From assembly GCF_023055435.1 (NCBI RefSeq), contig NW_025964372.1, positions 35,836,001-35,900,000 of the forward strand: a DNA stretch of 64,000 bases, in the 5' to 3' direction. The position numbers were made by a program, and so were the translations under genes. The DNA comes from Haliotis rufescens (lineage: Eukaryota). The notes under the pieces were generated by a model. The model saw only the letters and a program-made list of their open reading frames with translations. It was not told the origin of the DNA and did not search any database. Shown piece after piece: positions 20,930 through 61,557 of this stretch; position 1 is the first letter of the stretch; every line of letters begins with the position of its first letter.

Positions 20930-22194
20930 GTACATCAGTCTCTAATGCTTAGCATAGCCTAGTGGTTAAAGTGTTCACTCATTTCGCTGACTGATAGGTT
21001 TGATTCACAACATGGGTGCAATTTGTGGCTAGTTCCTGGTGTCCCTAGCTGGGGTCTTGTGCAGCGGCATTAAACCTTTCTCTCACACACTTGTGTCAGG
21101 CATGCAGTCTGGTTGATGAGATTCTTTGCAGTGTACCCTTCACCTTTAAGCACATGCTCGGAGCTTATTTTTGGGGTGTGGCTGTGTCAGATTCAAACTA
21201 GAATCGCTGGTACTAATTTCAGTCAAGATTTATGTTTCAGTTCCTTGTGGTGCTACGATGAAGATTGAGTATGATGTAATTAATTATGACAGATTACTTG
21301 TGCAGATGTGGTTATTGGCCGGACATTTCTCCATATTGCAAAAAATATTCCTGATTCTGATACAGTGATGAGCTTTTTGTTGAATAATGTTGCCAAGTGA
21401 CGGACATGTGTTCAGTACTCCCAGAAACAAACCAGTTGAGAAAGCTTAATATATGGTTAAAGTTTAAGTCCCTGTTTTGAAAAGTGAAATAAACTAAAGA
21501 TATTTTTGTGTTGCTTTAATGTTTCAGAAAGCTTTGATTCTTCCAGGAATATTACTTCAAGTTGAATGCTATCAATGTAGTTGTATCATAGCTGTGAGAT
21601 GTTCAATAAGATTTGTTATAATAGAACAGAAGGGCCCAGTCTTGCTGCGAGTTAGCTTAAATCTTCTAAAATTATGTCAAATTTTCATAATCTTTTGTGT
21701 ATGTGGATATTAGCAATTGTAAGATACATATCTCCTGTTGTAAGAGGATATTAACACATCGCTAAGATACATAATAAAAGTCAAGTGATGTACAGTTTTG
21801 CAAGAACATTCTCATCAATAAGTTCGATGTCAGTACAGTCATCTGTAATATACAAGGACAATACCCCAGAGTTAGTAGGCAATCTTATTGTGTTGAGGTC
21901 ATTTGGTAAATACATCAGGTTAGTTCTGTTCAAGTCGTGGTCCATGAGCTAAGCGTCGTTGTTCACCGTCAACCATCCATTATTCACCAGTTCAGGGCAT
22001 GTCATGGTCCCACATTGTGAACATCAATGGTTTCACTTCTAGTTTACTGAAGGCATCATCCAACTAATGGCACACTATTTTTCTCCAGAACAATATGAAA
22101 CTGTGAATATATTATGCAAAGGGACATCCTGGTTAAATTTGTCTGTGATTCCTTCTTGGGAAAGGGGGACATAAAAGGGTATGTCCTCATCAAT

Positions 22195-22360
22195 CTTAGT
22201 GAAGATGATCCTCAAGGAGTTGAGAGTGCGAGTATTCTCTTAGTGAAGATACTCCTCAAGGAATTGAGAGTGTGAGTATTCTCTTAGTGAAGATACTCCT
22301 CAAGGAGTTGAGAGTATGAGTATTCTCTTAGTGAAGATACTCCTCAAGGAGTTGAGAGTG
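22195..22360. repeat. 44-bp tandem repeat, about 3.7 copies, ending 30 bp before exon 6
   Basis: cttagtgaagatactcctcaaggagttgagagtgtgagtattct. Confidence 0.9.
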
Positions 22361-22390
22361 TAACATTTTGCCTGTTTTCTCCTCTACAAG

Positions 22391-22859: not shown

Positions 22860-24583
22860 GGTGTTAACTGATCGCGATGACTTAAGTCAGTGTATGCAAG
22901 GGTGATAGCTGATTGTGATGACCTCAGTTAGTCTATTCAAGGTGATAACTGATCACGATAACCTCAGTCTATGCAAGGGTGTAAACTGATTGTGATGACC
23001 TCAGTCAGTCTTTTTAAGGGTAATAACTAATCGCAATGACCTCAGTCAATCTATTCAAGGTGATATCTCACTCATCGTGATGACCTCACTCAGTGTATGC
23101 AAGGGTGTTAACTGAATGCAATGACTTCAGTCAGTGTATGCAAGGTGATAACTGATTGGAGTGACCTCATTCAGGCTATTCAAGGGTGATAACTGATTAT
23201 GATGACCTCAGTCAGTGTATGCAAGGTGATAACTGATTGCAGTGACCTCAAAACAGTCTATTTTTCAAGGGTGATAACTGATCATGATGACCTCAGTCAG
23301 TGTATGCAAGGTGATAACTGAATGAGTTGACCCCAGTAAGTCTAAGAAGGTTAACTGAACGCAATGACCCCAGTCAGTCTATGCAAGAAGGTCACCTGAG
23401 CGCAATGACCCCAGTCAGTCTATGCAAGGGTGTCCTCTATCATGGTAAGATGATGGCAATGACCCCAGTCAGTCTATGCAAGGGTGTCCTCTATCATGGT
23501 AAGATGATTGCAATGACCCAGTCAGTCTATGCAAGGGTGTCCTCTATCATGGTAAGATGATTGCAATGACCCAGTCAGTCTATGCAAGGGTGTCCTCTAT
23601 CATGGTAAGATGATTGCAATGACCCAGTCAGTCTATGCAAGGGTGTCCTCTATCATGGTAAGATGATTGCAATGACCCAGTCAGTCTATGCAAGGGTGTC
23701 CTCTATCATGGTAAGATGATTGCAATGACCCAGTCAGTCTATGCAAGGGTGTCCTCTATCATGGTAAGATGATTGCAATGACCCAGTCAGTCTATGCAAG
23801 GGTGTCCTCTATCATGGTAAGATGATTGCAATGACCCAGTCAGTCTATGCAAGGGTGTCCTCTATCATGGTAAGATGATTGCAATGACCCAGTCAGTCTA
23901 TGCAAGGGTGTCCTCTATCATGGTAAGATGATGGCAATGACCCAGTCAGTCTATGCAAGGGTGTCCTCTATCATGGTAAGATGATTGCAATGACCCAGTC
24001 AGTCTATGCAAGGGTGTCCTCTATCATGGTAAGCTGATGGCAATGACCCAGTCAGTCTATTCAAGGGTTTCCTCTATCATGGTAGGATGATGGCAATGAC
24101 CCAGTCAGTCTATGCAAGGGTGTCCTCTATCATGGTAAGATGATTGCAATGACCCAGTCAGTCTATGCAAGGGTGTCCTCTATCATGGTAAGCTGATGGC
24201 AATGACCCAGTCAGTCTATTCAAGGGTTTCCTCTATCATGGTAGGATGATGGCAATGACCCAGTCAGTCTATGCAAGGGTGTCCTCTATCATGGTAAGAT
24301 GATTGCAATGACCCAGTCAGTCTATGCAAGGGTGTCCTCTATCATGGTAAGATGATTACAATGACCCAGTCAGTCTATGCAAGGGTGTCCTCTATCATGG
24401 TAAGATGATTGCAATGACCCAGTCAGTCTATGCAAGGGTGTCCTCTATCATGGTAAGATGATGGCAATGACCCAGTCAGTCTATGCAAGGGTGTCCTCTA
24501 TCATGGTAGGATGATGGCAATGACCCAGTCAGTCTATGCAAGGGTGTCCTCTATCATGGTAAGATGATTGCAATGACCCAGTC
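22860..24583. repeat. Minisatellite: diverged about 40-bp units grading into homogeneous 53-bp units (about 22 copies)
   Basis: gacccagtcagtctatgcaagggtgtcctctatcatggtaagatgattgcaat. Confidence 0.95.
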
Positions 24584-25253
24584 AGGAGTAACGTGAAGGC
24601 AGCACCAGCTTCACTGTATATAAGTAGTCATCTAATATTAACTACTGTAGTCGATGCAGTGTGAATATAACCCACTTCTGTGTAAATCTTGTCTGCCTCA
24701 ACACCCTGTATGACTTCAGCTTGTACTATTGGACATAGTTCACACCTCATATCTAACTTGCAGTATTTCCACAATAAAAAAACCATATAAAACCATTTTT
24801 TTACGTACTTATTAACAAACAAGTCACCCGATAAATGACCCAGTTTGTATTTTTTGCACCTTTCTATACGTTTCTGTTTAACATTATAAGGATCTCATAT
24901 TCTAATCACCTAAATTGAAAGATGCCCCTTTGCCTGTTTTATGGAAGTTTTATTGATGATCCAATCAGTTTGAAAGATAATTTTGAATAATCTGAAAAGA
25001 AAGATTTAATAAGGGAGCTCTTTGGCTGTGGATGGTATATCTGACACCATCAGCAACATCACCATCAGCAACAACAGCAGCATCATCAGTGTAGTATTGT
25101 GTGGCGCCGTTGGCAGAGTAGAGCTTCATGTGATATCACTTTGTCTTGCATCACAGCTTCAAGCATTTACAAGAACACTCACGTATATACCTGACTTCTA
25201 CAATACTTTGTCAAAGTTACTGTCATCAACAGTGGCTCCGGCACCATGACATG

Positions 25254-30227: not shown

Positions 30228-30320
30228 TTCGATGTCTGCGTCCAGTGATTCTGCCATCGATAAAGGGGAGATGGGGTCACAAGAGCTAGGCAGAATCTCA
30301 GAGCTGGAGAAGGACTTGAT
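30228..30320 (+). CDS. TBC1D2B: TBC1D2B-like exon 9 (SMSASSDSAIDKGEMGSQELGRISELEKDL)
   Basis: tttatgatag / gtgagt, 93 nt, phase 2->2, leads into the coiled coil. Confidence 0.8.
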
Positions 30321-30745
30321 GTGAGTATAGCACTGCATGTTCACCTTATGAATAACTAACTCCCACATTGTGGTTTTGTGTGTGGATGGATTTTGGGCAA
30401 AAGGTTGAAGACTGGTGGGTGCTTGTCTCTCTGTAGACTTTGATGTGAGAATAAGGCAGTGAGTTCATCTTATGGATAATGAGCTCCCACATTGTGGTTT
30501 TGTGTGTGGATGGATATAGGGCAAAAGGTTGAAGACTGATGGGTGCTTGTCTCACTGTAGACTTTGATGTGAAAAATAAGGCAGTGAGTTCACCTTATGG
30601 ATAATTAGCTCCCACATTTGGATTTTGTGTATGGATGGATATAGGGCAAAAGGTTGAAGACTGGTGGGTGCTTGTCTCACTGTAGACTTTGATGTGAGAA
30701 TAAGGCAGTCAGTTCACCTTATTCATAATTAGTTCACACATTGTT
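30313..30745. repeat. About 124-bp tandem repeat, about 3.5 copies, containing the exon 9 donor junction; followed by a 41-bp repeat to about 30920
   Basis: gact(t)tgatgtgag recurs at about 30313, 30436, 30560 and 30685. Confidence 0.85.
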
Positions 30746-37593: not shown

Positions 37594-38596
37594 GTATTTT
37601 ATAGCAGCTTCATAACAGGCAGGGAAATTGTTTTGGACAGGAGTTGCCTCCCTTAGAATATAGCCTGTTTCCAGCACCTCGCTGATGAATCTAAATATTC
37701 ATAATCATGATCTTTATGAATGGTCATAGTTTTACAGAAACCTTGATTACCCTTCAAAAATTAATAATGATTAGGCTGCACAACATGAATTGAATCACCA
37801 TGTTTGGAAAATGTATCATCCTTATCTAATTTAATGCCACAATAAATTAATTTTTAGACTTTCCAAATTTTTCAAAGATCTTAGGCATCAGCCATTTTTA
37901 TTTTTTTAAACAAAACTGTTCAAGGCATCTGTGTTAATTAACAGTCAATGTTTTTTATTCGCATGAATATTTGGTTGGACTACGATACTGTAATCAAGTA
38001 AAGAATATGGGGACACATGCAGCAATGTACTTTGTCTGTAGGCGCTTGAGGATAATAGAATATTATATCCGGGTCAAGATTTTCAAAATGATCTTATTTA
38101 AGATTCATCAAAAAGGTATGTTGTTTCACACTTCTGTAAGAATAGACTGGGATAGAAATTATTTTCTGTTGACTCGATAGTTAAGAGAATCGCTGTCACT
38201 AGTAACAACATTTCCGACGTGAAATCTTTGATGCGTTCTTTGTGTATAAGAAGGGTCGATTTGAATCACACAGCTTAACAAAATGAAATGTCAATGTTTC
38301 AGCAAATGCAGGTTATTTGTTTAAAAAGTATCTGCAGCAAAGTATGCCACCATCTTGAATTAAATTCAATAAACTTACGACAGGTATGGACCTATCTTAG
38401 ATTTACGACATTCTTGCGATGTCTTAGGGCTACGATAGTTTTGAAAATAGGCTATGACAGTGTATGTTTGCCTTACGATGACTTTACAGTAACCTCAAGG
38501 CTAAGATTGTTATGAAGATCTAGATCCATCAGGGTTCGTAGTTAAGACAAGCATGAATGAAAGTGTAACAACTGATTGATGACAACATATGTGATA

Positions 38597-39771
38597 CGTG
38601 TCCTGCTCCAGTGCGTCAGTGTTGTGTGTGTTGTAGACTGGCGAATCACGACGTCCACGTGTCCTGCTCCAGTGTGTCAGTGTTGTGTGTGTTGTAGACT
38701 GGCGAATCATGACGTCCACGTGTCCTGCTCCAGTGTGTCAGTGTTGTGTGTGTTGTAGACTGGCGAATCATGACGTCCACGTGTCCTGCTCCAGTGCGTC
38801 AGTGTTGTGTGTGTTGTAGACTGGCGAATCATGACGTCCACGTGTCCTGCTCCAGTGTGTCAGTGTTGTGTGTGTTGTAGACTGGCGAATCATGACGTCC
38901 ACGTGGACTGCTCCAGTGTGTCAGTGTTGTGTGTGTTGTAGACTGGCGAATCATGACGTCCACGTGGACTGCTCCAGTGTGTCAGTGTTGTGTGTGTTGT
39001 AGACTGGCGAATCACGACGTCCTGGTGTCCTGCTCCATTGTGTCAGTGTTGTGTGTGTTGTAGACTGGCGAATCACGACGTCCTGGTGTCCTGCTCCATT
39101 GTGTCAGTGTTGTGTGTGTTGTAGACTGGCGAATCACGACATCCTGGTGTCCTGCTCCAGTGTGTCAGTGTTGTGTGTGTTGTAGACTGGCGAATCACGA
39201 CGTCCACGTGTCCTGCTCCAGTGTGTCAGTGTTGTGTGTGTTGTAGACTGGCGAATCATGACGTCCACGTGTCCTGCTCCAGTGTGTCAGTGTTGTGTGT
39301 GTTGTAGACTGGCGAATCACGACGTCCACGTGTCCTGCTCTAGTGTGTCAGTGTTGTGTGTGTTGTAGACTGGCGAATCACGACGTCCACGTGTCCTGCT
39401 CCATTGTGTCAGTGTTGTGTGTGTTGTAGACTGGCGAATCACGACGTCCACGTGTTCGGCTGCAGTGCGTCTGTGTTGTGTGTGTTGTAGACTGGCGAAT
39501 CATGACGTCCACATGTCCTGCTCCAGTGTGTCAGTGTTGTGTGTGTTGTAGACTGGCAAATCACGACGTCCACGTGTCCTGCTCCAGTGTGTCAGTGTTG
39601 TGTGTGTTGTAGACTGGCGAATCATGACGTCCACGTGGACTGCTCCAGTGTGTCAGTGTTGTGTGTGTTGTAGACTGGCGAATCATGACGTCCACGTGTC
39701 CTGCTCTAGTGTGTCAGTGTTGTGTGTGTTGTAGACTGGCGAATCACGACGTTCTGTTGTGTGTGTTGTAG
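38597..39771. repeat. 61-bp minisatellite, about 19 copies, built from the exon 14 acceptor and exon start
   Basis: Unit gtgtcctgctccagtgtgtcagtgttgtgtgtgttgtag|actggcgaatcaygacgtccac. Confidence 0.95.
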
Positions 39772-39961
39772 GCTGGCGAATCACGACGTCCACGTGGACT
39801 GCTATGGGTTCAAGCACCAGTTTGATGACCCCGGCCTGCTGCTCCACTACCTGTGTCAGGAGCTGAGCGTCCACTACCTGACTCAGGCCGGCGCCTACGA
39901 GGAACATCAGCGTCGGTGGAACAACTACCTCAGGCAGCACGCCAAGAACATCGTCAAAAAT
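39772..39961 (+). CDS. TBC1D2B: TBC1D2B-like exon 14 (LANHDVHVDCYGFKHQF...RRWNNYLRQHAKNIVKN)
   Basis: gtgttgtag / gtaagc. DxYGF motif and WxxYL helix typical just upstream of TBC domains. Phase 2->0. Confidence 0.92.
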
Positions 39962-40479: not shown

Positions 40480-40885
40480 GTATTGTCCATGATGTGAATG
40501 TATTGTCCGTGATGTGGATGTATTGTCTGTGATGTGGATGTATTGTCTATGATGTGGATGTATTGTCCGTGATGTGGATGTATTGTCTATGATGTGGATG
40601 TATTGTCCGTGATGTGGATGTATTGTCCGTGATGTGGATGTATTGTCTATGATGTGGATGTATTGTCCGTGATGTGGATGTATTGTCCGTGATGTGGATG
40701 TATTGTCTATGATGTGGATGTATTGTCTGTGATGTGGATGTATTGTCTATGATGTGGATGTATTGTCTGTGATGTGGATGTATTGTCTGTGATGTGGATG
40801 TATTGTCTATGATGTGGATGTATTGTCCGTGATGTGGATGTATTGTCTGTGATGTGGATGTATTGTCTATGATGTGAATGTATTT
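40480..40885. repeat. 20-bp minisatellite, about 20 copies, running into the exon 15 pyrimidine tract
   Basis: (gatgtggatgtattgtcyrt)n. Confidence 0.95.
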
Positions 40886-40897
40886 TGTGTTTTGCAG

Positions 40898-41053
40898 AAG
40901 AAGGGTTTGAAGCATCTGTGTCGTGGCGGAATTCCGGACCAGTTTCGGAAACAGGTGTGGCGGCAGCTAGTCCACGACCAAGTTCAGGATGTCATCACAG
41001 AGAAGGGTCCGCACTACTTCCGCAATCTCTGCAACCTTGTTCCGGACTCACCG
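40898..41053 (+). CDS. TBC1D2B: TBC1D2B-like exon 15 (KKGLKHLCRGGIPDQFRKQVWRQL..., TBC domain start)
   Basis: ttttgcag / G|GTAGGC. GIPxxxRxxVW is TBC motif A. Confidence 0.95.
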
Positions 41054-44000
41054 GTAGGCTACAGCATCAGTAATCTGTGGGGTGTTCAAGTCTTGCCTGA
41101 ATACAGGATCCGTAATCTGAGTGTGTTCAAGTCTTGGTTGGCTACAGGATCGGTAATCTGTGGGGTGTTCAAGTCTGGCCTGAATACAGGATCTGTAATC
41201 TGAGTGTGTTCAAGTCTTGGTTGGCTACAGGATCGGTAATCTGTGGGTGTTCAAGTCTTGGTAGGCTACAGGATCAGTAATCTATAGGGTGTTCAAGTCT
41301 TGGTAGTCTACAGGATCTGTAATCTGAGGGTGTTCAAGTCTTGGTAAGCTACAGGATCAGTAATCTGTAGGGTGTTCAAGTCTTGGTAGGTTACAGGATC
41401 AGTAATCTGAGGGTTTTCAAGTCTTGGTTAGCTACAGGATCAGTAATCTGAGGGTTTTCAAGTCTTGGTTAGCTACAGGGTCAGTAATCTGTAGGGTGTT
41501 CAAGTCTTGGTTGGCTACAGGATCAGTAATCTGAGGGTGTTCAAGTCTTGGTAGGCTACAGGGTCAGTAATCTGTAGGGTTTTCAAGTCTTGGTAGTCTA
41601 CAGGATCGGTAATCTTTGGGTGTTCAAGTCTTGGTAGGCTACAGGATCAGTAATCTGTAGGGTGTTCAAGTCTTGGTAGTCTACAGGATCAGTAATCTGT
41701 AGGGTGTTCAAGTCTTGGTAGTCTACAGGATCTGTAATCTGTAGGGTGTTCAAGTCTTGGTAGTCTACAGGATCTGTAATCTGAGGGTGTTCAAGTCTTG
41801 GTAGGCTACAGGATCAGTAATCTGTAGGGTGTTCAAGTCTTGGTAGTCTACAGGATCTGTAATCTGTAGGGTGTTCAAGTCTTGGTAGGCTACAGGATCA
41901 GTAATCTGTAGGGTGTTCAAGTCTTGGTAGTCTACAGGATCTGTAATCTGTAGGGTGTTCAAGTCTTGGTAGTCTACAGGATCTGTAATCTGAGGGTGTT
42001 CAAGTCTTGGTAGGCTACAGGATCAGTAATCTGTAGGGTGTTCAAGTCTTGGTAGTCTACAGGATCTGTAATCTGTAGGGTGTTCAAGTCTTGGTAGGCT
42101 ACAGGATCAGTAATCTGTAGGGTGTTCAAGTCTTGGTAGTCTACAGGATCTGTAATCTGAGGGTGTTCAAGTCTTGGTAAGCTACAGGATCAGTTATCTG
42201 TAGGGTGTTCAAGTCTTGGTAGGCTACAGGATCTGTAATCTGTAGGGTGTTCAAGTCTTGGTAGGCTACAGGATCTGTAATCTGTAGGGTGTTCAAGTCT
42301 TGGTAAGCTACAGGATCTGTAATCTGTAGGGTGTTCAAGTCTTGGTAGGCTACAGGATCTGTAATCTGAGGGTGTTCAAGTCTTGGTAAGCTACAGGATC
42401 AGTAATCTGTAGGGAGTTCAAGTCTTGGTAGGCTACAGGATCTGTAATCTGAGGGTGTTCAAGTCTTGGTAGGCTGCAGCATCAGTAATCTGTAGGGTGT
42501 TCAAGTCTTGCCTGAATACAGGATCAGTAATCTGAGGGTGTTCAAGTCTTGGTTAGCTACAGGATCAGTAATCTGTAGGGTGTTCAAGTCTTGGTAGGCT
42601 ACAGGGTCAGTAATCTGTAGGGTGTTCAAGTCTTGGTTGGCTACAGGATCAGTAATCTGAGGGTGTTCAAGTCTTGGTTAGCTACAGGGTCAGTAATCTG
42701 AGGGTGTTCAAGTCTTGGTAGGCTACAGGATCTGTAATCTGAGGGTGTTCAAGTCTTGGTAGGCTACAGGGTCAGTAATCTGAGGGTTTTCAAGTCTTGG
42801 TAGGCTACAGGATCAGTAATCTGTAGGGTGTTCAAGTCTTGGTTAGCTACAGGATCAGTAATCTGAGGGTGTTCAAGTCTTGGTAGGCTACAGGGTCAGT
42901 AATCTGTAGGGTGTTCAAGTCTTGGTAGGTTACAGGATCAGTAATCTGAGGGTTTTCAAGTCTTGGTTAGCTACAGGGTCAGTAATCTGTAGGGTGTTCA
43001 AGTCTTGGTAGGCTACAGGATCAGTAATCTGAGGGTGTTCAAGTCTTGGTAGGCTACAGGATCAGTAATCTGTAGGGTTTTCAAGTCTTGGTTGGCTACA
43101 GGATCAGTAATCTGAGGGTCTTCAAGTCTTGGTTAGCTACAGGGTCAGTAATCTGAGGGTTTTCAAGTCTTGGTTGGCTACAGGATCAGTAATCTGAGGG
43201 TGTTCAAGTCTTGGTAGGTTACAGGATCAGTAATCTGTAGGGTTTTCAAGTCTTGGTTGGCTACAGGATCAGTAATCTGAGGGTGTTCAAGTCTTGGTAA
43301 GCTACAGGATCAGTAATCTGTAGGGTGTTCAAGTCTTGGTAGGCTACAGGATCAGTAATCTGAGGGTGTTCAAGTCTTAGTAGGCTACAGGATCAGTAAT
43401 CTGAGGGTTTTCAAGTCTTGGTTAGCTACAGGATCAGTAATCTGTAGGGTGTTCAAGTCTTGGTAGGCTACAGGGTCAGTAATCTGTAGGGTGTTCAAGT
43501 CTTGGTTGGCTACAGGATCAGTAATCTGTAGGGTGTTCAAGTCTTGGTTAGCTACAGGGTCAGTAATCTGAGGGTGTTCAAGTCTTGGTAGGCTACAGGA
43601 TCTGTAATCTGAGGGTGTTCAAGTCTTGGTAGGCTACAGGATCTGTAATCTGTAGGGTGTTCAAGTCTTGGTAGGCTACAGGGTCAGTAATCTGAGGGTG
43701 TTCAAGTCTTGGTAAGCTACAGGATCAGTAATCTGTAGGGTGTTCAAGTCTTGGTAGGCTACAGGATCTGTAATCTGTAGGGTGTTCAAGTCTTGGTAGT
43801 CTACAGGATCTGTAATCTGTAGGGTGTTCAAGTCTTGGTAAGCTACAGGATCAGTAATCTGTAGGGTGTTCAAGTCTTAGTAGGCTACAGGATCAGTAAT
43901 CTGAGGGTGTTCAAGTCTTAGTAGGCTACAGGATCAGTAATCTGAGGGTTTTCAAGTCTTGGTTAGCTACAGGATCAGTAATCTGTAGGGTGTTCAAGTC

Positions 44001-45875
44001 TTGGTAGGCTACAGGGTCAGTAATCTGTAGGGTGTTCAAGTCTTGGTTGGCTACATGATCAGTAATCTGTAGGGTGTTCAAGTCTTGGTTAGCTACAGGG
44101 TCAGTAATCTGAGGGTGTTCAAGTCTTGGTAGGCTACAGGATCTGTAATCTGAGGGTGTTCAAGTCTTGGTAGGCTACAGGATCTGTAATCTGTAGGGTG
44201 TTCAAGTCTTGGTAGGCTACAGGGTCAGTAATCTGAGGGTGTTCAAGTCTTGGTAAGCTACAGGATCTGTAATCTGTAGGGTGTTCAAGTCTTGGTAGGC
44301 TACAGGATCTGTAATCTGTAGGGTGTTCAAGTCTTGGTAGTCTACAGGATCTGTAATCTGTAGGGTGTTCAAGTCTTGGTAAGCTACAGGATCAGTAATC
44401 TGTAGGGTGTTCAAGTCTTGGTAAGCTACAGGATCAGTAATCTGTAGGGAGTTCAAGTCTTGGTAAGCTACAGGATCAGTAATCTGTAGGGTGTTCAAGT
44501 CTTGGTAAGCTACAGGATCAGTAATCTGTAGGGAGTTCAAGTCTTGGTAGGCTACAGGATCAGTAATCTGAGGGTGTTCAAGTCTTGGTAGGCTGCAGCA
44601 TCAGTAATCTGTAGGGTGTTCAAGTCTTGCCTGAATACAGGATCTGTAATCTGAGGGTTTTCAAGTCTTGGTTAGCTACAGGATCAGTAATCTGTAGGGT
44701 GTTCAAGTCTTGGTAGGCTACAGGGTCAGTAATCTGTAGGGTGTTCATGTCTTGGTTAGCTACAGGGTCAGTAATCTGAGGGTGTTCAAGTCTTGGTAGG
44801 CTACAGGATCTGTAATCTGAGGGTGTTCAAGTCTTGGTTAGCTACAGGGTCAGTAATCTGAGGGTGTTCAAGTCTTGGTAGGCTACAGGATCAGTAATCT
44901 GTAGGGTGTTCAAGTCTTGGTTAGCTACAGGATCAGTAATCTGAGGGTGTTCAAGTCTTGGTAGGCTACAGGGTCAGTAATCTGTAGGGTGTTCAAGTCT
45001 TGGTAGGTTACAGGATCAGTAATCTGAGGGTTTTCAAGTCTTGGTTAGCTACAGGGTCAATAATCTGTAGGGTGTTCAAGTCTTGGTTGGCTACAGGATC
45101 TGTAATCTGAGGGTGTTCAAGTCTTGGTTAGCTACAGGATCAGTAATCTGAGGGTGTTCAAGTCTTGGTAGGCTACAGGGTCAGTAATCTGTAGGGTGTT
45201 CAAGTCTTGGTAGGTTACAGGATCAGTAATCTGAGGGTTTTCAAGTCTTGGTTAGCTACAGGGTCAGTAATCTGAGGGTGTTCAAGTCTTGGTCTGCTAC
45301 AGGATCAGTAATCTGAGGGTTTTCAAGCCTTGGTAGGTTACAGGATCAGTAATCTGTAGGGTTTTCAAGTCTTGGTAGGCTACAGGATCAGTAATCTGAG
45401 GGTGTTCAAGTCTTGGTAAGCTACAGGATCAGTAATCTGTAGGGTGTTCAAGTCTTGGTAGGCTACAGGATCAGTAATCTGAGGGTGTTCAAGTCTTAGT
45501 AGGCTACAGGATCTGTAATCTGAGGGTTTTCAAGTCTTGGTTAGCTACAGGATCAGTAATCTGTAGGGTGTTCAAGTCTTGGTAGGCTACAGGGTCAGTA
45601 ATCTGTAGGGTGTTCAAGTCTTGGTTGGCTACAGGATCAGTAATCTGTAGGGTGTTCAAGTCTTGGTTAGCTACAGGGTCAGTAATCTGTAGGGTGTTCA
45701 AGTCTTGGTAGGCTACAGGATCTGTAATCTGTAGGGTGTTCAAGTCTTGGTAGGCTACAGGGTCAGTAATCTGAGGGTGTTCAAGTCTTGGTAGGCTACA
45801 GGATCAGTAATCTGAGGGTTTTCAAGTCTTGGTATCCTGCAGGATCAGTAATCTATAGGGCGCTCAAGCCTTGGT
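41054..45875. repeat. 41/42-bp minisatellite, about 115 copies, filling almost all of intron 15
   Basis: ggtaggctacaggatcagtaatctg(t)agggtgttcaagtctt; first unit begins at the donor GT. Confidence 0.97.
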
Positions 45876-46034
45876 TGGCGGATTAACTAGGCCATAGAAA
45901 TAGGTGCTTGTTTCAGAAATCATGGAAAGTCTGCCATAATGTGTAATAATTCATCTTTGATTGATCCATGTTGTGAGTGTACATAGATGTGTTTCAAGAA
46001 GGTAGTGAGAGTTTGTGTACTTGTTCTTCCTCAG

Positions 46035-46124
46035 CTGGCTGCTCGCTACAGGAAGCAGGTCTCCCTGGACCTGATGCGGACAATGCCGAGTAATGTCAAG
46101 TTCGCCACGGCAGGATCCAGAGGG
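46035..46124 (+). CDS. TBC1D2B: TBC1D2B-like exon 16 (LAARYRKQVSLDLMRTMPSNVKF..., Arg finger)
   Basis: cttcctcag / gtgagt. (I/V)xxDxxR catalytic motif. Confidence 0.95.
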
Positions 46125-46475
46125 GTGAGTTGTCATGGTGACCACAGACAGACACACAGACAGACACACAGACAACAACTGTTAAGTACAGGATCATTAA
46201 TGTCCTAACCTGCACACATAGGTGTTATGGAAGCTGGTATGGTTATTCAAAGTATCAGAAGTTCATGCATGTATGGTTCAATCCAGCCAATGTATGAAAG
46301 AGTTAGTTAGAGACTCCCAGGATTATGAAAATCACACCTATATACAGATTACAGAATAGTTAGTCTGATGTTTAGTCAAGTGATACATGTGCAAGGAATT
46401 AAAGAAGTGATGTGGTTGTTGAGATTGTGTAAAGTATACTGCTGGTGTGTAGACGCGTGTGACCTTCACCTTCAG

Positions 46476-46600
46476 ATCATGGACATGCAGGACATCCTCC
46501 TGGCCTTCTGCATCCACAGCCCCTCCATCGGATACTGCCAGGGCATGAACTTCATTGTTGGCATGGCGCTGCTCTTCATGGATGCACAGGATGCTTTCTG
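46476..46600 (+). CDS. TBC1D2B: TBC1D2B-like exon 17 (IMDMQDILLAFCIHSPSIGYCQGMNF...DAFW, Gln finger)
   Basis: caccttcag / gtcagt. YxQ motif (GYCQGMN). Phase 0->2. Confidence 0.95.
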
Positions 46601-46947
46601 GTCAGTTTAACCCTACTCTGGAAATATCTTTGATAGGCCCCATGAAGATCCTGTTAAGAATTGGTCTACAGCAACTGTAGGAGGCAACTAACAGGATCTG
46701 GTTGCGCAGATCGATGCTCATGATGTCAATCACTGGATTTTCTGGCCCTGACTTGATTACTAACAGACAGACGTCAAATAGCTGGAATATTGCTAAGTGT
46801 GTCTTTAAACAACAAACAAATATCTTGTTAGTAGGAAGTTGACAAAATTTGATTTCAAGAAAAACGAAGATTATAGAATAATATGGAAGTTATTTCTGCT
46901 GGGAACTTGGGCCATGTTCCACCTCGCTATCTACTTCAAGGCTGTAA

Positions 46948-47230: not shown

Positions 47231-48211
47231 TATGGCTATAATGACTTCCACACTTTTTGTTTCGTGTATTTTAATCCAAGACCTTGTCACTCTTTGGATC
47301 TGAGCACTGAGGTTGTAAACTCCATTTTTTAGTCATTTTAGTATAATACGGGTACTTGGTTTACATATCCACAGCCCCTAAAATCAGGAATGTAGCGGAA
47401 AGTTCATTTCTGCTTTTTTTGTTACCACCAAAATGACAAATAATTACACTTACAAAAAAATTAATTCACAAATATTTAGCCCTGTCTGATTCCGACATAT
47501 GTTGCATGCTCCAGGATGTGTAAACGTTCACTCACACTGTAAATCATAGCTACAACAAATACTTTAACTCCAAGCAGTGTGTGGCTTGTTCTCATTTAAA
47601 CACTATAAATCTTTACATATATTCACATTTCACAAAAATGCGAAACAAAAAGAATAATTCAAGTTGTATTGGTCATCCTACCGACCTTTTATATCTACAG
47701 AAAAAGGGTAGAATATTATTTCTATTTTAATTTCGACCAGCAAGCCAAGATATGAGACAAAAATTCTGTAAACAAGCTAATACCGTATTCGACGATCTTT
47801 TAACTGTGTTTTTTTTCTTACCAAAATTATATTCTAATAAGAGCCCCCTATTTCTAATTTTTAGAGCGCCCTAGGCGCTTATTGCGTCAAATACGGTAAT
47901 AAAAAGTCAGCACAAACAAAGAAAAATACTTGAGAGAGCTGTTCTGGTGTCACCTGTTTTCCACTAAAGGACATAAATGGAGGGATAGGTCAGAGGAATA
48001 GCCTCACAGTTATACAATATGTTCCCCTCCCAACTTTCTCTGTGGTCTGGTTGATACAGCCTCTGTCCTGATAGTGGAGGGCCGGTGGCTCGTTCCTTGG
48101 ATGTGTCTAGTACAAGCAGCCACACACAGACACTTGCATGCATGTCGCTATTGTAAGTGTGACAATCTTGAACATGACCATGTTAAACCCCTTTTCACCT
48201 CACCCTGTCTC

Positions 48212-48610
48212 ACCCCCACCCACACATTGCTGCAGTGCACTAACCCCCTGTGACTGTGTACAGGACCCTGGTGGCCATCACAGAGAGTTACTTTACGCCC
48301 CCCTAACCACCCCCACCCCCACCCACACATTCCTGCAATGCACTAACTCCCTGTGACTGATACAGGACCCTGGCTTGCCATCACAGAGAGTTACTTTACG
48401 CCCCCCTAACCACCCCCACCCCCACCCACACATTGCTGCAGTGCACTAACCCCCTGTGACTGATACAGGACCCTGGTGGCCATCACAGAGAGTTACTTTA
48501 CACCCCCCTAACCACCCCCACCCCACCCACACATTGCTGCAGTGCACTAACCCCCTGTGACTGTGTACAGGACCCTGGTGGCCATCACGGAGAGGTACTT
48601 CACCCCCAGC
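48212..48610. repeat. About 102-bp tandem repeat, 4 copies; the last copy is the real exon 18 acceptor and start
   Basis: cactaaccccctgtgactg(tg/a)tacag|gaccctggtggccatcac with AG at 48263, 48365, 48468 and 48570. Confidence 0.95.
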
Positions 48611-55129: not shown

Positions 55130-55710
55130 TGGAGTTGGTCCACTGGTGTTGTGACGTCTGCAGCAACGTCTGCAGCAACGTCCAGCAGAGCTGTAGAAGT
55201 TACAGCATATAGTACACGGTGTTGGTCCACTGGTGTTGTGACGTCTGCAGCAACGTCCAGCAGAGCTGTAGAAGTTACAGCATATAGTACACGGAGTTGG
55301 TCCACTGGTGTTGTGACGTCTGCAGCAACGTCCAGCAGAGCTGTAGAAGTTACAGCATATAGTACACGGAGTTGGTCCACTGGTGTTGTGACATCTGCTG
55401 CAACGTCCAGCAGAGCTGTAGAAGTTACAGCATATAGTACACGGTGTTGGTCCACTGGTGTTGTGACATCTGCAGCAACGTCCAGCAGAGCTGTAGAAGT
55501 TACAGCATATAGTACACGGTGTTGGTCCACTGGTGTTGTGACATCTGCTGCAACGTCCAGCAGAGCTGTAGAAGTTACAGCATATAGTACACGGAGTTGG
55601 TCCACTGGTGTTGTGACGTCTGCTGCAACGTCCAGCAGAGCTGTAGAAGTTACAGCATATTATACACGGAGTTGGTCCACTGGTGTTGTGACGTCTGCTG
55701 CAACGTCCAA
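55130..55710. repeat. 75-bp tandem repeat, about 7.5 copies
   Basis: gttggtccactggtgttgtgacgtctgcagcaacgtccagcagagctgtagaagttacagcatatagtacacgg. Confidence 0.95.
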
Positions 55711-56053
55711 CAGTGGAAGAATGTTTCAGAAACCACTGTTACTGTCATCAAGTTATAGTTAGTGTTTTGACAAGTGATATGTATAAATTCACTGCTGCAA
55801 ACTCTAAATGGACATGGCAGATCTCAGGGATGAGACTGTGTCCACATCAACACAAAACATCCAGCTAGAAATACCATGACGATACGCCATAATGCAAATC
55901 AGTGAATCCGTAGAAATACGACAGGGACATACTATGAATTAGGTCAACAATAAAACAATGTAAAATTGAGACATAAAAACATGTGCAACAAAGTGTCAAC
56001 ATTCATTTTAAAAATCCCTGATAATATCTATAGTGTTTATGCTACTTTCCTAA

Positions 56054-56664
56054 TCATAATCTAGGTTTAATTTTCATTACTGAAGTCTTCATCTGAATCC
56101 AGTCTTGCCAGTCACTGTTGAACCACACAATGCCGGTGTCGTAACGGCCGTTGAGGTTGCTGTATTGGCAATGGCGGTACCACCAGCCCGAGGTGAAGTA
56201 CAGAGCACAGTGGGTGCTGCTCAGGTCATTGTCCTTATCCTGTGTACTGAAGGCCATGTCATTAGAATAGTCCATTCCATCTGTAGCGTTGCCATGGAAA
56301 CCATGAACCCGTAGCTTATAATTTTCCTCTTTTGTTGAAATTGCAAACTCATCATATTCCACAAACCAGTATCCATCGAAGACATCCGTCATTTCGATCC
56401 TGAGAGAATAGTTATCATGCGTTGTCATCAAATGAATGAATTCATTGCCGACCCAGAATTCATCCTCAGCGGAACCAAATCCTATGGCATATTCCGCCCA
56501 AGATCGACTAAAGTTCTCCTTGCCATGCACACGTTTCTGAATCAGTGTCCAACCACCATCGGCCTCCATGCTGCAGTAGACGAACACTGACTGCAGCGCC
56601 CCCTTGGGGTATATGATGTACTTCCCGGAGTCCAGGAACCCACGCTTGTAGTAGCCATCACAAT
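56054..56664 (-). CDS. Fibrinogen C-terminal domain (FReD) terminal exon of the scabrous/angiopoietin-like gene
   Basis: DC...VYCSM..DGGWTLIQKR..G..NF.R.W.EY..GFG....EFWVGNE...FSTQDKDND....HCA....SGWWY..C...NLNG. Acceptor ttgttccag, TGA stop at 56054-56056. Confidence 0.95.
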
Positions 56665-57046
56665 CTGGAACAAATAGTGAAGGGTCATTACTTTCAAAAA
56701 ACAAAATCTTACAAATCGCTCTGTGTGTAAATCTGACAATCAGACTTTCTTGACATATCCTCTGAATATTGAATGTGATGTTAGCCCATAACCTGAATGT
56801 AATGTAGATACATCAGTACTCTGTTTTAACCATTAACCTTTTTTGGAAATGGGTCAGTGGTGGCCCAGTTGTCTAAGCTACTGCAATTGTTGTACAAGTA
56901 TGCACTAGTCATAGGTTGCCCTGATTGTCAGCCTCGATCTGTCATCACCATTGTCCTGGCTCGTGGGTTTCACCAAAGTGTCAAATACAATGTATCTATA
57001 AACTGAGCTGATGAGGCATTTCGCCACATTAAACTGACATATGTTA

Positions 57047-57402
57047 CAGTACTGAAATGTGGCATTGGACACCACTCATTCAGAATAGGTAACAGAATTT
57101 CACAACGGTTCTCAGATCTTTTTGACAGCTGTAAATCTCTACTGCAACTATTTGCCAACATCATATCCTTGTACTCAGTTATAAAAACTTTTTCGCTCTC
57201 ACTGACAAATACTATTAAATCATCAGTACTGAAATGTGGCATTGGACACCACTCATTCAGAATAGGTAACAGAATTTCACAACTGTTCTCAGATCTTTTT
57301 GACAGCTGTAAATCTCTACTGCAACTATTTGCCAACATCATATCCTTGTACTCAGTAAAAAAACTTTTTCGCTCTCACTGAGAAATACTTTTAAATCATC
57401 AG
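57047..57402. repeat. About 177-bp tandem duplication in the intron of the nested gene
   Basis: cagtactgaaatgtggcattggacacc... occurs at about 57047 and 57224, nearly identical. Confidence 0.9.
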
Positions 57403-57704
57403 AGCTCCAGATACTCAGATATGCTGATACTCAGAATATTTGCAAAACAATTGTGAAATTTTTCAAAATTTCAATAGTACAACAAGACTGTGTGTAATTT
57501 TCCAATGTAAATAACAAACTTATAGCCGGAGCCCTTATTCATTGGCTATGTGAAAACATTTCCACCCATAACCCCTTGCTTCCCCTCACACAAACTCAAA
57601 CCCTAACCCTAATCATTTTTAATTACTTCCAGCCAGGGTTTATGATTCATAAAAATTACGAGTCAGGGGTTGCGGGCAGAAGTTTTATGTCTCTATGTCC
57701 TCAC

Positions 57705-59338
57705 CTGTGGGTACAGTGGTGAGGAGGTTGGTGACCTCCTGCTGCACGAGGCTGATGATGGGCATGTACAGCTGCCATGTTGCTGCCTTCGACCACAGCT
57801 TGTGCAGGAACACTGTGTTGTTCTTGCAGTTACTGTGTACCCGGTACAGAGCCCGGTCAACTCTCTTGATCATCTCACTCAGCAGCAATCCCTGGCTGGT
57901 CATTGCCGACATCTCCTTCTCAAGGGTCAGCAGGCGGCCATCTTGGTACAGGTCCTTGCTGGACTTCTGACACTGGAACAAAGTCTGGTTGAGGACCTTG
58001 CTCTCCAAGTTGGCGATCCTGTTCTCGTTGTAGATGATCTGTAGGGCTAGGTCCTCCACGCGGGACATGACGTCCCCAGATGGTGGTGTGTACCCAGGTT
58101 GTTGATGGGCGGTGGTGGGACTTCCAGACTTGATGCTGCCAAGGTACTCTACATGTTCCCGAAGGTCCTGCACACTGTTGTTGAGGCGGATGATGTGCAT
58201 CCTGAGAACTCGGTACTGCTGGTCACTAAGGAGTCGCTGATCGGTCATCTTCCAGTCCATCTGACCGACTGCCCTGGAGTTGTTGAGGATCATGTTGGTC
58301 ATCTGTGCAATCTGCTGCTGGTTGAACTGGGTGGAGTTGATGATCTGATCGCTGGCCATCTTCCACTGATCCAGGGTGATGACATTCTGGGTGAAGTTGA
58401 TGAGAGACTCCTGCAGCTTCTGCATGAAGTCCCCAAGCTGGATGGACAGAACCCGACTCTCAACCCCATGGATCTTCTCGCCCATACGGACCATCTGCTG
58501 CTCCACGTTCTCAATGTCCGTGTCTCGCTTTAGAATCTCTTGTTCAAAGTAGGAGTCATGTGTCTTCAGAAGGTCCTTTATCCTGGCCTCTAGTTCTTCT
58601 CTGTCTGCGTTGTCAAGCTTGCCCTTGACTTGCTGCTCTAATACTTGAAGTCTGTCTTCCAGATCTACCACATTAACACCATTGACACTTGATGTGTTGA
58701 GTGTGGGAAGGAGAGTGTCAACATCCACACCATCTCCATCTCCACTACCTTCTTCTGCATCTGGAGGACCTGTATTGGGTCTTGACATCCGACTTTCAAA
58801 GCTCATATCCCCCGAGCCGTCACCGGAATCTAGGTCCTCATTGGTCCAAACAAGGGAATCATTTGTTTGATTCAGTTCTAACCTGTTCACATTTCGTCCA
58901 TGCCTTCTCTGATCTTTTACATGAACTTTTAATATTTTAACAACATTGCCATATCTATTTTGAAGTTTTGAAATTGAGTCACTATTTGTTTTTTCCTTTT
59001 TTCGCAAACCCTGCACGTCCTCCATCAAAGAAACATAACTTTGAAACAAATCTTCTTTCACACTCATCAGTTGTGACATATTATGCCGCACTTCAAACAC
59101 ATGATCATCCTCAAATGGCCTTGCATCCTTAACCAAGGTCATCTCGTGTTTGGTTTCGCGCTGTTGAAAGTCTAGTCGTGTAATGTCTAGCTTGATGTTT
59201 GTCGACTGCTCCTCAATGGCTCCAAAGCGCTCCCGAAGCTCCACAATGTGCTGGCGCAGCTGGACCACTTCAGCTTCAGCTTTGATCATCGTGTCGCGGT
59301 ATTGTCTTGTTCGTCTTTCCATTCGACGGAGACGGGTT
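57705..59338 (-). CDS. Scabrous/angiopoietin-like fibrinogen-related protein, large coiled-coil exon (5' exon with signal peptide not located)
   Basis: 556-aa ORF with heptad-like composition. Minus-strand acceptor tgtttacag|A at 59338, donor ACAG|GTGAGG at 57705. Phase 1 joins the next exon as ...VPT-D-CDG. Confidence 0.88.
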
Positions 59339-61557
59339 CTGTAAACATAGACCAAGATTAATCATTCGTTTCACATGGTTGAGTTTCTTTGTGAATAAAC
59401 ATCAGATATGATAAATGTTGTCAACAACATTCTAGTTAGCTATGTCCAACCTCGTTTTCAGGGTTTTTGTGTTAAATCATTAAGCTTTTTTCTTGAAACT
59501 GATTTCAATTGTTTTTCAGGGGTAAATTTGTGGGTTTGATAAATTTCTGCCATAAGCTGACGATTTTGGTATTCATAGATTACCAAGAATATTCCATTAT
59601 TTTCAAATTGCAAATTTTTCATATCAAACAAAGTGGACAATAATAAAGAAGTGGGAGGTTATAAAAGGATATATAGAAGATATTCACCATGGTAATTATG
59701 ACTGATATCTGCCAATAATGAAACCCTTGTACAGTGTTAAAGAAATGAAAGGATCACATCCATGAGTCGATCTATAACAGCGAATCAAATGTAAGATCAT
59801 ATACACAAATATTTATAGAATGAGAAATACTCTGTTCAAGTATGTTGAGGTGAGGTGAAATGAGGCATAACGTCGTTTTCAAGACTATTGCACTTATATG
59901 CGACTCAGATTACGATTTGAATAAAAATACACAAAAACTGAAAGTTTTGCTTTGATTAACAGCCTGAAAGCAATTGTATGACAGATTTGAGCAAGTTTCA
60001 CAATGTTCCTTCACAAAAAAGCCTACAGCTTACTTGAAATGCCCTTTCAGGGGTAACATGATGTGGCAACTCACAAACCTGTCTGATATTTTATATCCAT
60101 TTATTCAATTTTGTGAAGTTACATGTTCAAAGATGTAAGCACTGGGTGAACCTCTCTTTGTCTTGAGGAAAAGGGAACTGAAGTTGGGCATAAATGCATC
60201 ATTATTGAAAAGCACCTGATAATAAACTCCCTCATGGTCATGTTCAAAGGCTTGTATGTCTTTCTGCTCTCTCTCTTTGTTTAGTTATTTCTTTAAATTT
60301 TTCAATATTTTTATGATAATTTTAGGGGCATTGGGTTAGCCTAGTGGTTAAAGCATTTACTGGTCACACCAAAGGACTGGGTTGTATGTGAAGACGGGAG
60401 ACCTCCACCGTGATAGTGCTGCAATATTGTTGAAAGATGTGTAAAACCTCGCTCGTTAGCTTGCTTGCTTGCTTGCTCGCTCGCTCACTCACTCACTCAC
60501 TCACTCGTCCCCACTCGCCTCACTCACTCACTCACTCACTCCTATATTCTTGTCTTAATAACTTCAAGAAATTTGTTTTGTTTTATTAGTACTTGACATA
60601 TTGTCAACCCAATGTTTTTTGACAATGATTAATCACACTTTTTCCCTACTTTTGTGACAGGAAAAACAGACCAATTCTATTTCTCTGTCCTTTCTTCATT
60701 TGAAGAAAATAAAGTCAAGTGTAGCTCTCTGCTCTAGTTTTATACCCTAAGCTTACTGCTGGCTCAGAGACTGTTTATACCAATTATCAATAAATGCCCA
60801 TCAAACATACAGTATTGAAGTCAAGGTCATGACAAGACTACTTCACGAGCCTGAACCTCATATTAATGTTTGGTGAGACTTCTATCTTACTCAGACCCAT
60901 CAGTTGGCATTATCAAGTGGGACATCAGGCTTTGGCAGCTTACGATTTTTGTCATTTTAAATGTTTGAGTTTACACAACATGACAAGCAGTCTGACAAGG
61001 GACATCAGTTACACATCCACCAGTCAGTATAATGGGCATCCATTTTAACATTCCAAATCAGTATTTTATTGGGCAGCTTTTTAATCAATTAATCAACTCC
61101 GAAACCCCTTTCAAAGTGTATTTTATACATGTGTATGTATGCATACAGATCTTAAGGGTGTTGTTTGATGTTCTTCAAAGGGAAGGCTTAAAACACTAAT
61201 GTATTCCTACAGCTATAAATAACGTAATACACAGACCGTTCATCCTAGAATTTCTTAATCAAAGCAATGTTACTCCTACACAAATATTTACTATGTCTGT
61301 ATTCGCCTGCTGAATCATATAATCGATCATGTGTTCATACTCAAGAGTGGCTAACAAATCAGTCTAGCATATCGCACTGATGGGTCATGCCATGTCTTCC
61401 TTGGTAAGACAGTTAATATGGCTGCCTGCTGTACCAGGAGAGATCATATCTCGGCACGAAGATGAACTAAAGAGGTGATTAAACCAATATCCTTGCAGAT
61501 GGATGAGAAAATCTATAATAACGTTCCTACGTCAACTCAAATAATATTTCCCCCAAG

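What the first reader, a model, noticed from the sequence alone, without database searches (positions are those of the whole stretch)
41054..45875. Intron 15 is essentially an amplified 5' splice-site region: about 115 units starting at the donor
Seen: the array begins at the first intron base (CCG|GTAGGCTACAG). Most units regenerate G|GTAGGC, G|GTAAGC or G|GTAGTC, and some look as good as or better than the real donor. About 4.8 of the 5.0 kb of intron is repeat. Inference: the intron grew by amplifying its own donor region and offers a dense array of potential U1 sites and cryptic donors.
Basis: partly seen in the sequence, partly recalled or inferred. Interest (0 to 1): 0.7.

Follow-up and report, generated by a model that had tools for sequence, protein, structure and literature searches.

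The report
Abalone intron grown from splice-donor repeat
One intron of an abalone Rab-GAP-domain gene is 97% filled by 116 tandem copies of its own first 42 bases, likely made by local duplication, and the RNA seen shows one spliced form, likely from the true donor, much as with known splice-junction repeats of human and amphioxus genes.

Summary
The array is real: 116 units of 41-42 bp start at the donor base 41054 and fill 4826 of 4981 nt of an intron (16th by my count) in an abalone TBC1D2-like gene. Of 115 downstream units, 68 read G|GTAGGC/GTAAGC/GTAGTC, but none copies the true donor exactly (TTG| versus CCG|; one exonic base shared). Whether donor-like sites are unusually dense depends on the score. 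No cryptic use was seen: 3 of 3 RNA-like runs give one unbranched contig through the acceptor. Contigs drop rare forms, and a stop codon at +148 would send any use to decay. Units 2-5 lack a donor, so the first rival lies at +208. Best reading: a locally born minisatellite that splicing tolerates by choosing the exon-proximal donor, like human F7 intron 7 and amphioxus 'mirages'. This scan noted the same kind in chimaera and urchin DNA. New here: the size, the intron-only unit, and three more junction arrays in the same gene (4 of 11 arrays overlap a junction, 0.6 expected; post hoc). Local origin could not be tested genome-wide.

The parts
40898..41053 (+). Coding exon 16 (156 nt, phase 0) of a PH-TBC-WD40 (TBC1D2-like) Rab-GAP gene
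   Evidence: 19 exons read 775 of 775 identical to P0001; Pfam RabGAP-TBC, PH, WD40
41051..41059 (+). True donor CCG|GTAGGC, a middling site (matrix 4.1 bits; the gene's 19 donors score 0.5-12.5)
41054..45879 (+). Minisatellite: 116 complete 41/42-nt units (to 45873) plus a 6-nt partial unit; a majority-type unit is 41634-41675
41096..41260 (+). Units 2-5, a diverged two-unit block present twice, without GTA donors; no UAGGGU/A motif until +232
41201..41203 (+). First in-frame stop on read-through from exon 16, upstream of every strong rival donor
41258..41266 (+). First intact rival donor TTG|GTAGGC at +208
42469..42551 (+). Interior copy of the unit 1-2 signature (units 35-36); again at 44588-44670 (units 86-87)
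45880..46034 (+). Unique 3' end of the intron with the pyrimidine tract and AG
   Evidence: present with 5 differences over 45837-46139 in a DNA run of a second species label
46035..46124 (+). Coding exon 17, joined to exon 18 (46476-46600) in 3 of 3 RNA-like runs
30316..30744 (+). Sister array, 124 bp x 3.5, spanning the exon 10 donor (5 exonic bases)
38596..39789 (+). Sister array, 61 bp x about 20, repeating the exon 15 acceptor with the start of that exon; 20 AG copies, the last is the real one
40480..40884 (+). 20-bp array ending 13 nt before the exon 16 acceptor, so exon 16 is flanked by arrays on both sides
48211..48607 (+). Sister array, 103 bp x 3.9, repeating the exon 19 acceptor with the start of that exon; 4 copies, the last is the real one

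Best explanation
This is an intronic minisatellite that likely arose by tandem duplication of the intron's first 42 bases and likely grew by slippage and unequal exchange, while splicing likely keeps using only the donor next to the exon. Shown: the unit count, its start at the donor, diverged edge units, repeated multi-unit blocks, one unbranched RNA contig per run. Inferred: the spliceosome defines exon 16 and takes the first donor it meets. That donor also has a better exon side than most copies (C at -3, where the copies have T), and its nearest intact rival is 207 nt away. Any slip to a copy would include the stop at 41201 and be cleared by nonsense-mediated decay. The array is probably a tolerated passenger rather than a regulator.
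For: Edge units are more diverged (units 1-5 mean 5.2 differences from the majority, units 6-115 mean 2.1, unit 116 has 7), and identical runs of 4-5 units recur (shuffles: mean 2.1, maximum 3 in 300), as expected of unequal exchange. The donor unit's signature is copied into the interior twice. No copy outside the array in the 64-kb window. Three more arrays in this gene overlap junctions, two with exon sequence, and in all four the site next to the exon is the one that gives the 775/775 protein. In 3 of 3 RNA-like runs from 3 studies a single contig covers exon 17 from 46034 and runs on upstream for 1221, 1168 and 2156 letters; depth in the first bin equals that contig's share exactly; exons 1-16 hold 1899 coding bases. 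7 of 7 homologous proteins have no insertion at this junction. Human F7: only the most upstream of 5-9 identical donors is used, even when downstream ones are strengthened (PMC1557585, Introduction and Discussion read). Amphioxus mirages do not disturb splicing and have unhomogenised boundary units (PMC3087553, passages).
Against: The unit holds only one exonic base, so unlike the sister arrays its local origin cannot be read from sequence, and dispersed copies were not searchable. Contigs drop rare variants and decay would hide slips. 19 to 43 sites score at or above the real donor, and folding does not favour the real donor (unpaired 0.21, against a mean of 0.29 for 23 sampled copies). The upstream-donor rule was shown in mammalian cells, not in a mollusc.
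Confidence: 0.7

Rival explanations
1. Self-silencing array: it could grow so large because each unit carries a silencer beside its pseudo-donor. hnRNP A1-like proteins would coat UAGGGU motifs and mask the copies, while selection would keep the first 200 bases free of both motifs.
For: 61 TAGGG(T/A) motifs in the array, 12.6 per kb, against 7 (0.18 per kb) in the other 17 introns; the first is at +232 and the first intact rival donor at +208. UAGGGA/U is named as the optimal hnRNP A1 site in PMC9457596 (passage).
Against: Any motif in a unit is multiplied with it, so density proves nothing. Only 61 motifs for 116 units. Units 2-5 are one two-unit block present twice, so a donor-free start has a chance of about 0.10, and edge divergence is normal for such arrays. 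No binding data; mollusc hnRNP A1 specificity is assumed.
Confidence: 0.12
2. Regulatory array: pseudo-donors would be used at a low rate that scales with array length, sending part of the transcript to decay or sequestering U1, so that allele length tunes the Rab-GAP dose.
For: 86 sites lie within 0.5 kcal/mol of the real donor in U1 pairing; every such use would carry a stop. In human 6-16 and CBS two pseudo-sites are used besides the real one (PMC1557585 Introduction). An intronic VNTR affects ABCA7 splicing (PMC5954066, search listing only).
Against: No second contig at the acceptor in 3 of 3 RNA-like runs, one at depth 305. By the gene-trained matrix the donor density is ordinary. The known used pseudo-sites are the nearest ones, and here the nearest four units have no donor.
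Confidence: 0.09
3. Foreign satellite: a dispersed or transposon-borne 42-mer family would have inserted exactly at the exon end and now supplies the donor.
For: The unit has no recognisable exon sequence. Abalone introns here hold dispersed repeats (one at about 46700-46820 draws very high depth). Genome-wide absence is untested.
Against: It would have to land on the exact junction and bring a working donor. No other copy in the window. The sister arrays show that local junction duplication is common in this gene.
Confidence: 0.07
4. Assembly artefact: the array would be much shorter or absent in real chromosomes.
For: Long arrays are hard to assemble, and its length was not checked with reads.
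Against: 47 distinct units with no identical run above 5 units. 7 of 24 listed runs hold 0.51-0.58 of the words where non-array words make up only 0.39 (one may be the source sample). A DNA run of a second species label shows extra contigs on the last unit.
Confidence: 0.02

Closest known systems
Human F7 intron 7 37-bp VNTR, with 6-16 (25 pseudo-sites), CBS intron 13 (15-20 units), lamin B2 (10-15) and PDGF intron 4 (16-18) as listed in PMC1557585 (abstract, Introduction, Discussion read)
   Same: A minisatellite whose first unit holds the working donor; copies run into the intron; the most upstream donor is the one used.
   Different: F7 units include 4 exonic bases and repeat the donor exactly. 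Here one exonic base is shared and 0 of 115 copies match over -3..+6. 116 units against 5-25; 97% of the intron; the four nearest units have no donor; length polymorphism is untested.
Amphioxus 'mirage' minisatellites (Adh3, globins BflGb6/9: PMC3087553, passages; PGBD5 60- and 108-bp repeats: PMC3902484, passages)
   Same: Several junction-anchored arrays in an invertebrate gene, at donors and acceptors; many but not all units keep GT/AG; no disturbed splicing seen; boundary units escape homogenisation. The PGBD5 repeats are described as immediately abutting a 5' splice site.
   Different: Those globin and PGBD5 arrays have 2-7 units and carry clear exon sequence; the focal array has 116 and almost none. 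The 61-, 103- and 124-bp sister arrays fit the mirage pattern better than the focal one. A search for mirage + tandem repeat + exon-intron + mollusc found 0 papers.
Human splicing-associated tandem repeats (ABCA7 intron 18 VNTR, PMC5954066, listing only; spl-TR catalogue, PMC10078293, passages)
   Same: An intronic repeat close to a splice site that could shift splicing with its length.
   Different: Those have measured effects; none is shown here.

Membership tests
F7-type donor-spanning minisatellite | First unit contains the working donor | tested here: met
   Unit 1 starts at 41054 (41053 with the shared G)
F7-type donor-spanning minisatellite | The exact donor sequence is reiterated in the intron | tested here: not met
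   0 of 115 copies read CCG|GTAGGC; 43 read TTG|GTAGGC
F7-type donor-spanning minisatellite | Only the most upstream site(s) are used | tested here: inconclusive
   One unbranched contig in 3 of 3 runs, upstream letters not shown, rare forms dropped; 7 of 7 homologues without insertion
F7-type donor-spanning minisatellite | Copy number varies between alleles | not testable with these tools
   The read tool turns away long repeats and only contigs were on hand for DNA
Amphioxus-type mirage | Unit spans an exon-intron boundary | tested here: inconclusive
   One exonic base for the focal array; met for the 124-, 61- and 103-bp sister arrays
Amphioxus-type mirage | Many but not all units keep the splice signal | tested here: met
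   78 of 115 downstream units begin GTAG or GTAA, 37 do not
Amphioxus-type mirage | Interior homogenised, boundary units diverged | tested here: met
   Mean differences 5.2 (units 1-5), 2.1 (units 6-115), 7 (unit 116)
Amphioxus-type mirage | Normal splicing is undisturbed | tested here: inconclusive
   Consistent at contig level only
Dispersed satellite or mobile-element repeat | Copies at unrelated loci | tested here: inconclusive
   None in the 64-kb window; no genome held

The most novel reading that the evidence does not exclude
In abalone, minisatellites are born preferentially at splice junctions genome-wide, so introns grow outward from their own splice sites. This gene (4 of 11 arrays on a junction, about 7 times expectation, two donors and two acceptors, always with the exon-proximal copy in use) is a typical case, and the 116-unit array reached its size because a donor-free buffer and built-in UAGGGU silencers hide its copies.
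Probability: 0.25. Interest if true: 0.55.

Novelty: new variant of a known kind. Interest (0 to 1): 0.27.

Why it matters
On its own this is an unusually large case of a known oddity. It shows that a middling donor can hold against some 20-40 equal or better sites in a mollusc, extending the upstream-donor rule from mammalian cells. The wider lead is the cluster of four junction arrays in one gene. If the bias holds genome-wide it gives hundreds of natural tests of exon definition outside chordates, and points to a mutational link between splice junctions and repeat birth, whose mechanism the amphioxus paper calls unclear (PMC3087553). In practice such arrays can create false exon predictions: the 61-bp array gave 13 spurious tblastn hits to residues 518-528.

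Tried and rejected
No whole genome was held, so dispersed copies and a species-trained splice model were out of reach; I used a matrix from this gene's own donors and U1 duplex energy (U1 end and donor consensus recalled). The first matrix had exon 18 one base off; one search corrects it and supplies the numbers. A metagenome scan for a 27-nt unit stretch found 0 matches; that collection is not expected to hold abalone, so this is no evidence. No RNA holder on record was listed; the three RNA-like runs are guesses, though their GT..AG join shows spliced RNA. The loose-end table was crowded out by a dispersed repeat at about 46700-46820. The 6-of-7 match between the donor and the array's far end was rejected as proof of local origin: any array ending in a partial unit shows it, and a 6-of-7 match within 20-130 nt occurs at 3 of 19 donors. 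Masking by RNA structure: not supported. Pseudo-exons in the array: the best AG sites score 2.4-4.2 against 3.4 for the real acceptor on a weak 17-site matrix; undecided. New intron made by the duplication: rejected, since the unit is not exon-derived and the acceptor region is unique. Papers: 9 answered searches; searches found no mollusc or abalone report of junction arrays among the listed titles, but most subscription papers are not in the library and no supplements were read (PMC3087553 files 4-7 hold the mirage alignments). The scan's own notes had nothing on this genome or sequence.

Full report
Setting. The exon before the array finds 7 of 7 candidate proteins, all mollusc. Nineteen exons from 2176 to 48781 translate to 775 residues, 775 identical to P0001, which its source names as a Haliotis rufescens protein. 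P0001 has PH, RabGAP-TBC and WD40 domains; Mytilus relatives are named TBC1D2B. The intron in question is the 16th coding intron, 41054-46034, 4981 nt, phase 0.

Observation. TRF gives period 42, 116.2 copies, 91% matches. There are 116 complete units, 64 of 42 nt and 52 of 41 nt, 47 distinct, covering 96.9% of the intron. The copies are preceded by TTG (or TTA, TGG), not CCG, so only one exonic base is shared and no copy repeats the true donor over -3..+6. The amplified piece is the first 42 intron bases.

Donor strength. Two rough scores were used. By U1 duplex energy 19 sites equal or beat the real donor, and 86 lie within 0.5 kcal/mol (17.3 per kb; other 17 introns at most 5.8). By a matrix from the other 18 donors, 43 array sites reach the real donor's 4.1 bits, including 23 copies of a second site, AGG|GTCAGT, but the intron's density (8.8 per kb) is ordinary for this gene (2.3-24.6, median 8.4). 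The dense-decoy claim therefore depends on the measure. Units 2-5 have no GTA donor; the first intact rival is at +208; read-through meets a stop at 41201. Use of any strong copy would therefore give a premature stop and likely decay (inference from general knowledge). The donor-free start is a two-unit block present twice, with a chance of about 0.10.

How it grew. Edge units are more diverged than the interior (5.2, 2.1 and 7 differences), identical runs of 4-5 units recur beyond shuffles (maximum 3 in 300), and the unit 1-2 signature is copied at units 35-36 and 86-87. This is the pattern of unequal exchange with unhomogenised boundaries described for amphioxus mirages. The unit has no copy elsewhere in the window.

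Reads. 7 of 24 listed runs, from 3 studies, hold 0.51-0.58 of the sampled words of 40898-46610, where non-array words are 0.39 of the distinct words; one may be the source sample. I laid 4 of the 24 runs on 45832-46900. In 3 of 3 RNA-like runs (3 studies, 2 species labels) one contig covers exon 17 from 46034, joins it to exon 18 across a 351-nt GT..AG intron, and continues upstream for 1221, 1168 and 2156 letters. Depth at exon 17 is that single contig's (305, 8.75, 40.4), and the bin across the acceptor equals its share exactly. A contig that long cannot plausibly run through the array (inference), and exons 1-16 hold 1899 coding bases. The upstream letters were not displayed, and contigs drop rare forms, so this shows a dominant single form, not zero cryptic use. 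All 7 homologues lack an insertion at the junction. In the one DNA run laid (second species label) a 352-letter contig stops 16 letters upstream of 45837, and summed depth on the last unit is 113 against 16.8 beside it, which suggests the repeat is multi-copy there too; the tool warns that summed depth is no copy number.

Surroundings. Three more arrays overlap junctions of this gene: 124 bp x 3.5 at the exon 10 donor, 61 bp x about 20 at the exon 15 acceptor, 103 bp x 3.9 at the exon 19 acceptor. The last two repeat coding sequence and must be local. In all four the exon-proximal site gives the intact protein. With arrays collapsed to one unit and dropped at random on the gene 100,000 times, 4 of 11 arrays (period 20 or more, 3 or more copies) overlap a junction against 0.60 expected (p 0.002); 3 of 10 against 0.50 without the focal array (p 0.011); 4 of 20 against 0.91 for all periods of 10 or more (p 0.011). 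The 20 were picked by hand from TRF's 61 rows, dropping redundant rows, rows built on microsatellites and rows outside 2176-48781. The test is post hoc and from one gene. Against it, 0 of 2 arrays near a nested fibrinogen-domain gene (55166-55713, 57047-57402) touch the one intron of that gene that I located (about 57704-56665; read).

Mechanism. Most likely (0.7): a local duplication grew into a minisatellite that is tolerated because the spliceosome takes the donor next to the exon. Borensztajn et al. (PMC1557585; abstract, Introduction, Discussion read) showed this for human F7: pseudo-sites are functional but unused, even when strengthened to a consensus value of 91. Here the real donor also has a better exon side than most copies and a 207-nt head start. 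Rivals: self-silencing by UAGGGU motifs (61 in the array against 7 in 17 other introns; motif from PMC9457596, passage), 0.12; length-tuned unproductive splicing, 0.09; foreign satellite, 0.07; assembly artefact, 0.02.

Comparison. It works like the F7, CBS, 6-16, lamin B2 and PDGF repeats and like amphioxus mirages (PMC3087553 and PMC3902484, passages). It fails the F7 feature of an exactly repeated donor and only marginally spans the boundary, so I file it as a variant: intron-side donor duplication with 116 units, against 5-25 in the human cases listed. Earlier notes of this scan describe the same kind in chimaera and sea-urchin DNA (unchecked by me). My searches listed no mollusc report, within a library that lacks most subscription papers.

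Verdict. Observation confirmed; interpretation partly supported; no cryptic use seen; local origin likely but untested genome-wide. Interest 0.27. The lead worth following is the junction bias across the abalone genome.

Noticed in passing
window 38596-39789: 61-bp array repeats the exon 15 acceptor with the start of that exon: 20 AG copies upstream-to-real, the last one used. A cleaner mirage than the focal array; most copies read AG|A where the real one reads AG|G.
   Followed up: partly
window 48211-48607 and 30316-30744: 103-bp acceptor-spanning array (4 copies) and 124-bp donor-spanning array (4 copies) in the same gene.
   Followed up: partly
window 23402-24585: 53-bp array (22 copies, 97% alike) in mid-intron 7 whose unit holds a strong donor-like TG|GTAAGA; intron 7 has 20 sites with U1 pairing as good as the exon 16 donor, with no exon of P0001 nearby.
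   Followed up: no
window 40480-40884: 20-bp array whose last degenerate copy runs into the pyrimidine tract of the exon 16 acceptor; exon 16 is boxed in by repeats on both sides.
   Followed up: partly
window 56057-59361, minus strand: Nested gene in intron 19: a long coiled-coil-like exon and a fibrinogen C-terminal domain exon (Pfam PF00147, E 5e-57), angiopoietin-like in layout (label recalled); intron about 57704-56665.
   Followed up: partly
window 2176-48781: Eleven minisatellite regions make up about 10.8 of 44.3 kb (24%) of this gene's introns.
   Followed up: no
window about 46700-46820: Very high-copy dispersed repeat (SINE-like by guess) with summed depth in the hundreds of thousands in both RNA-like and DNA runs.
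   Followed up: no
   Followed up: no
window 22389-22390: Exon 7 uses a rare AAG acceptor, 29 nt after the end of a 44-bp array (22194-22361).
   Followed up: no
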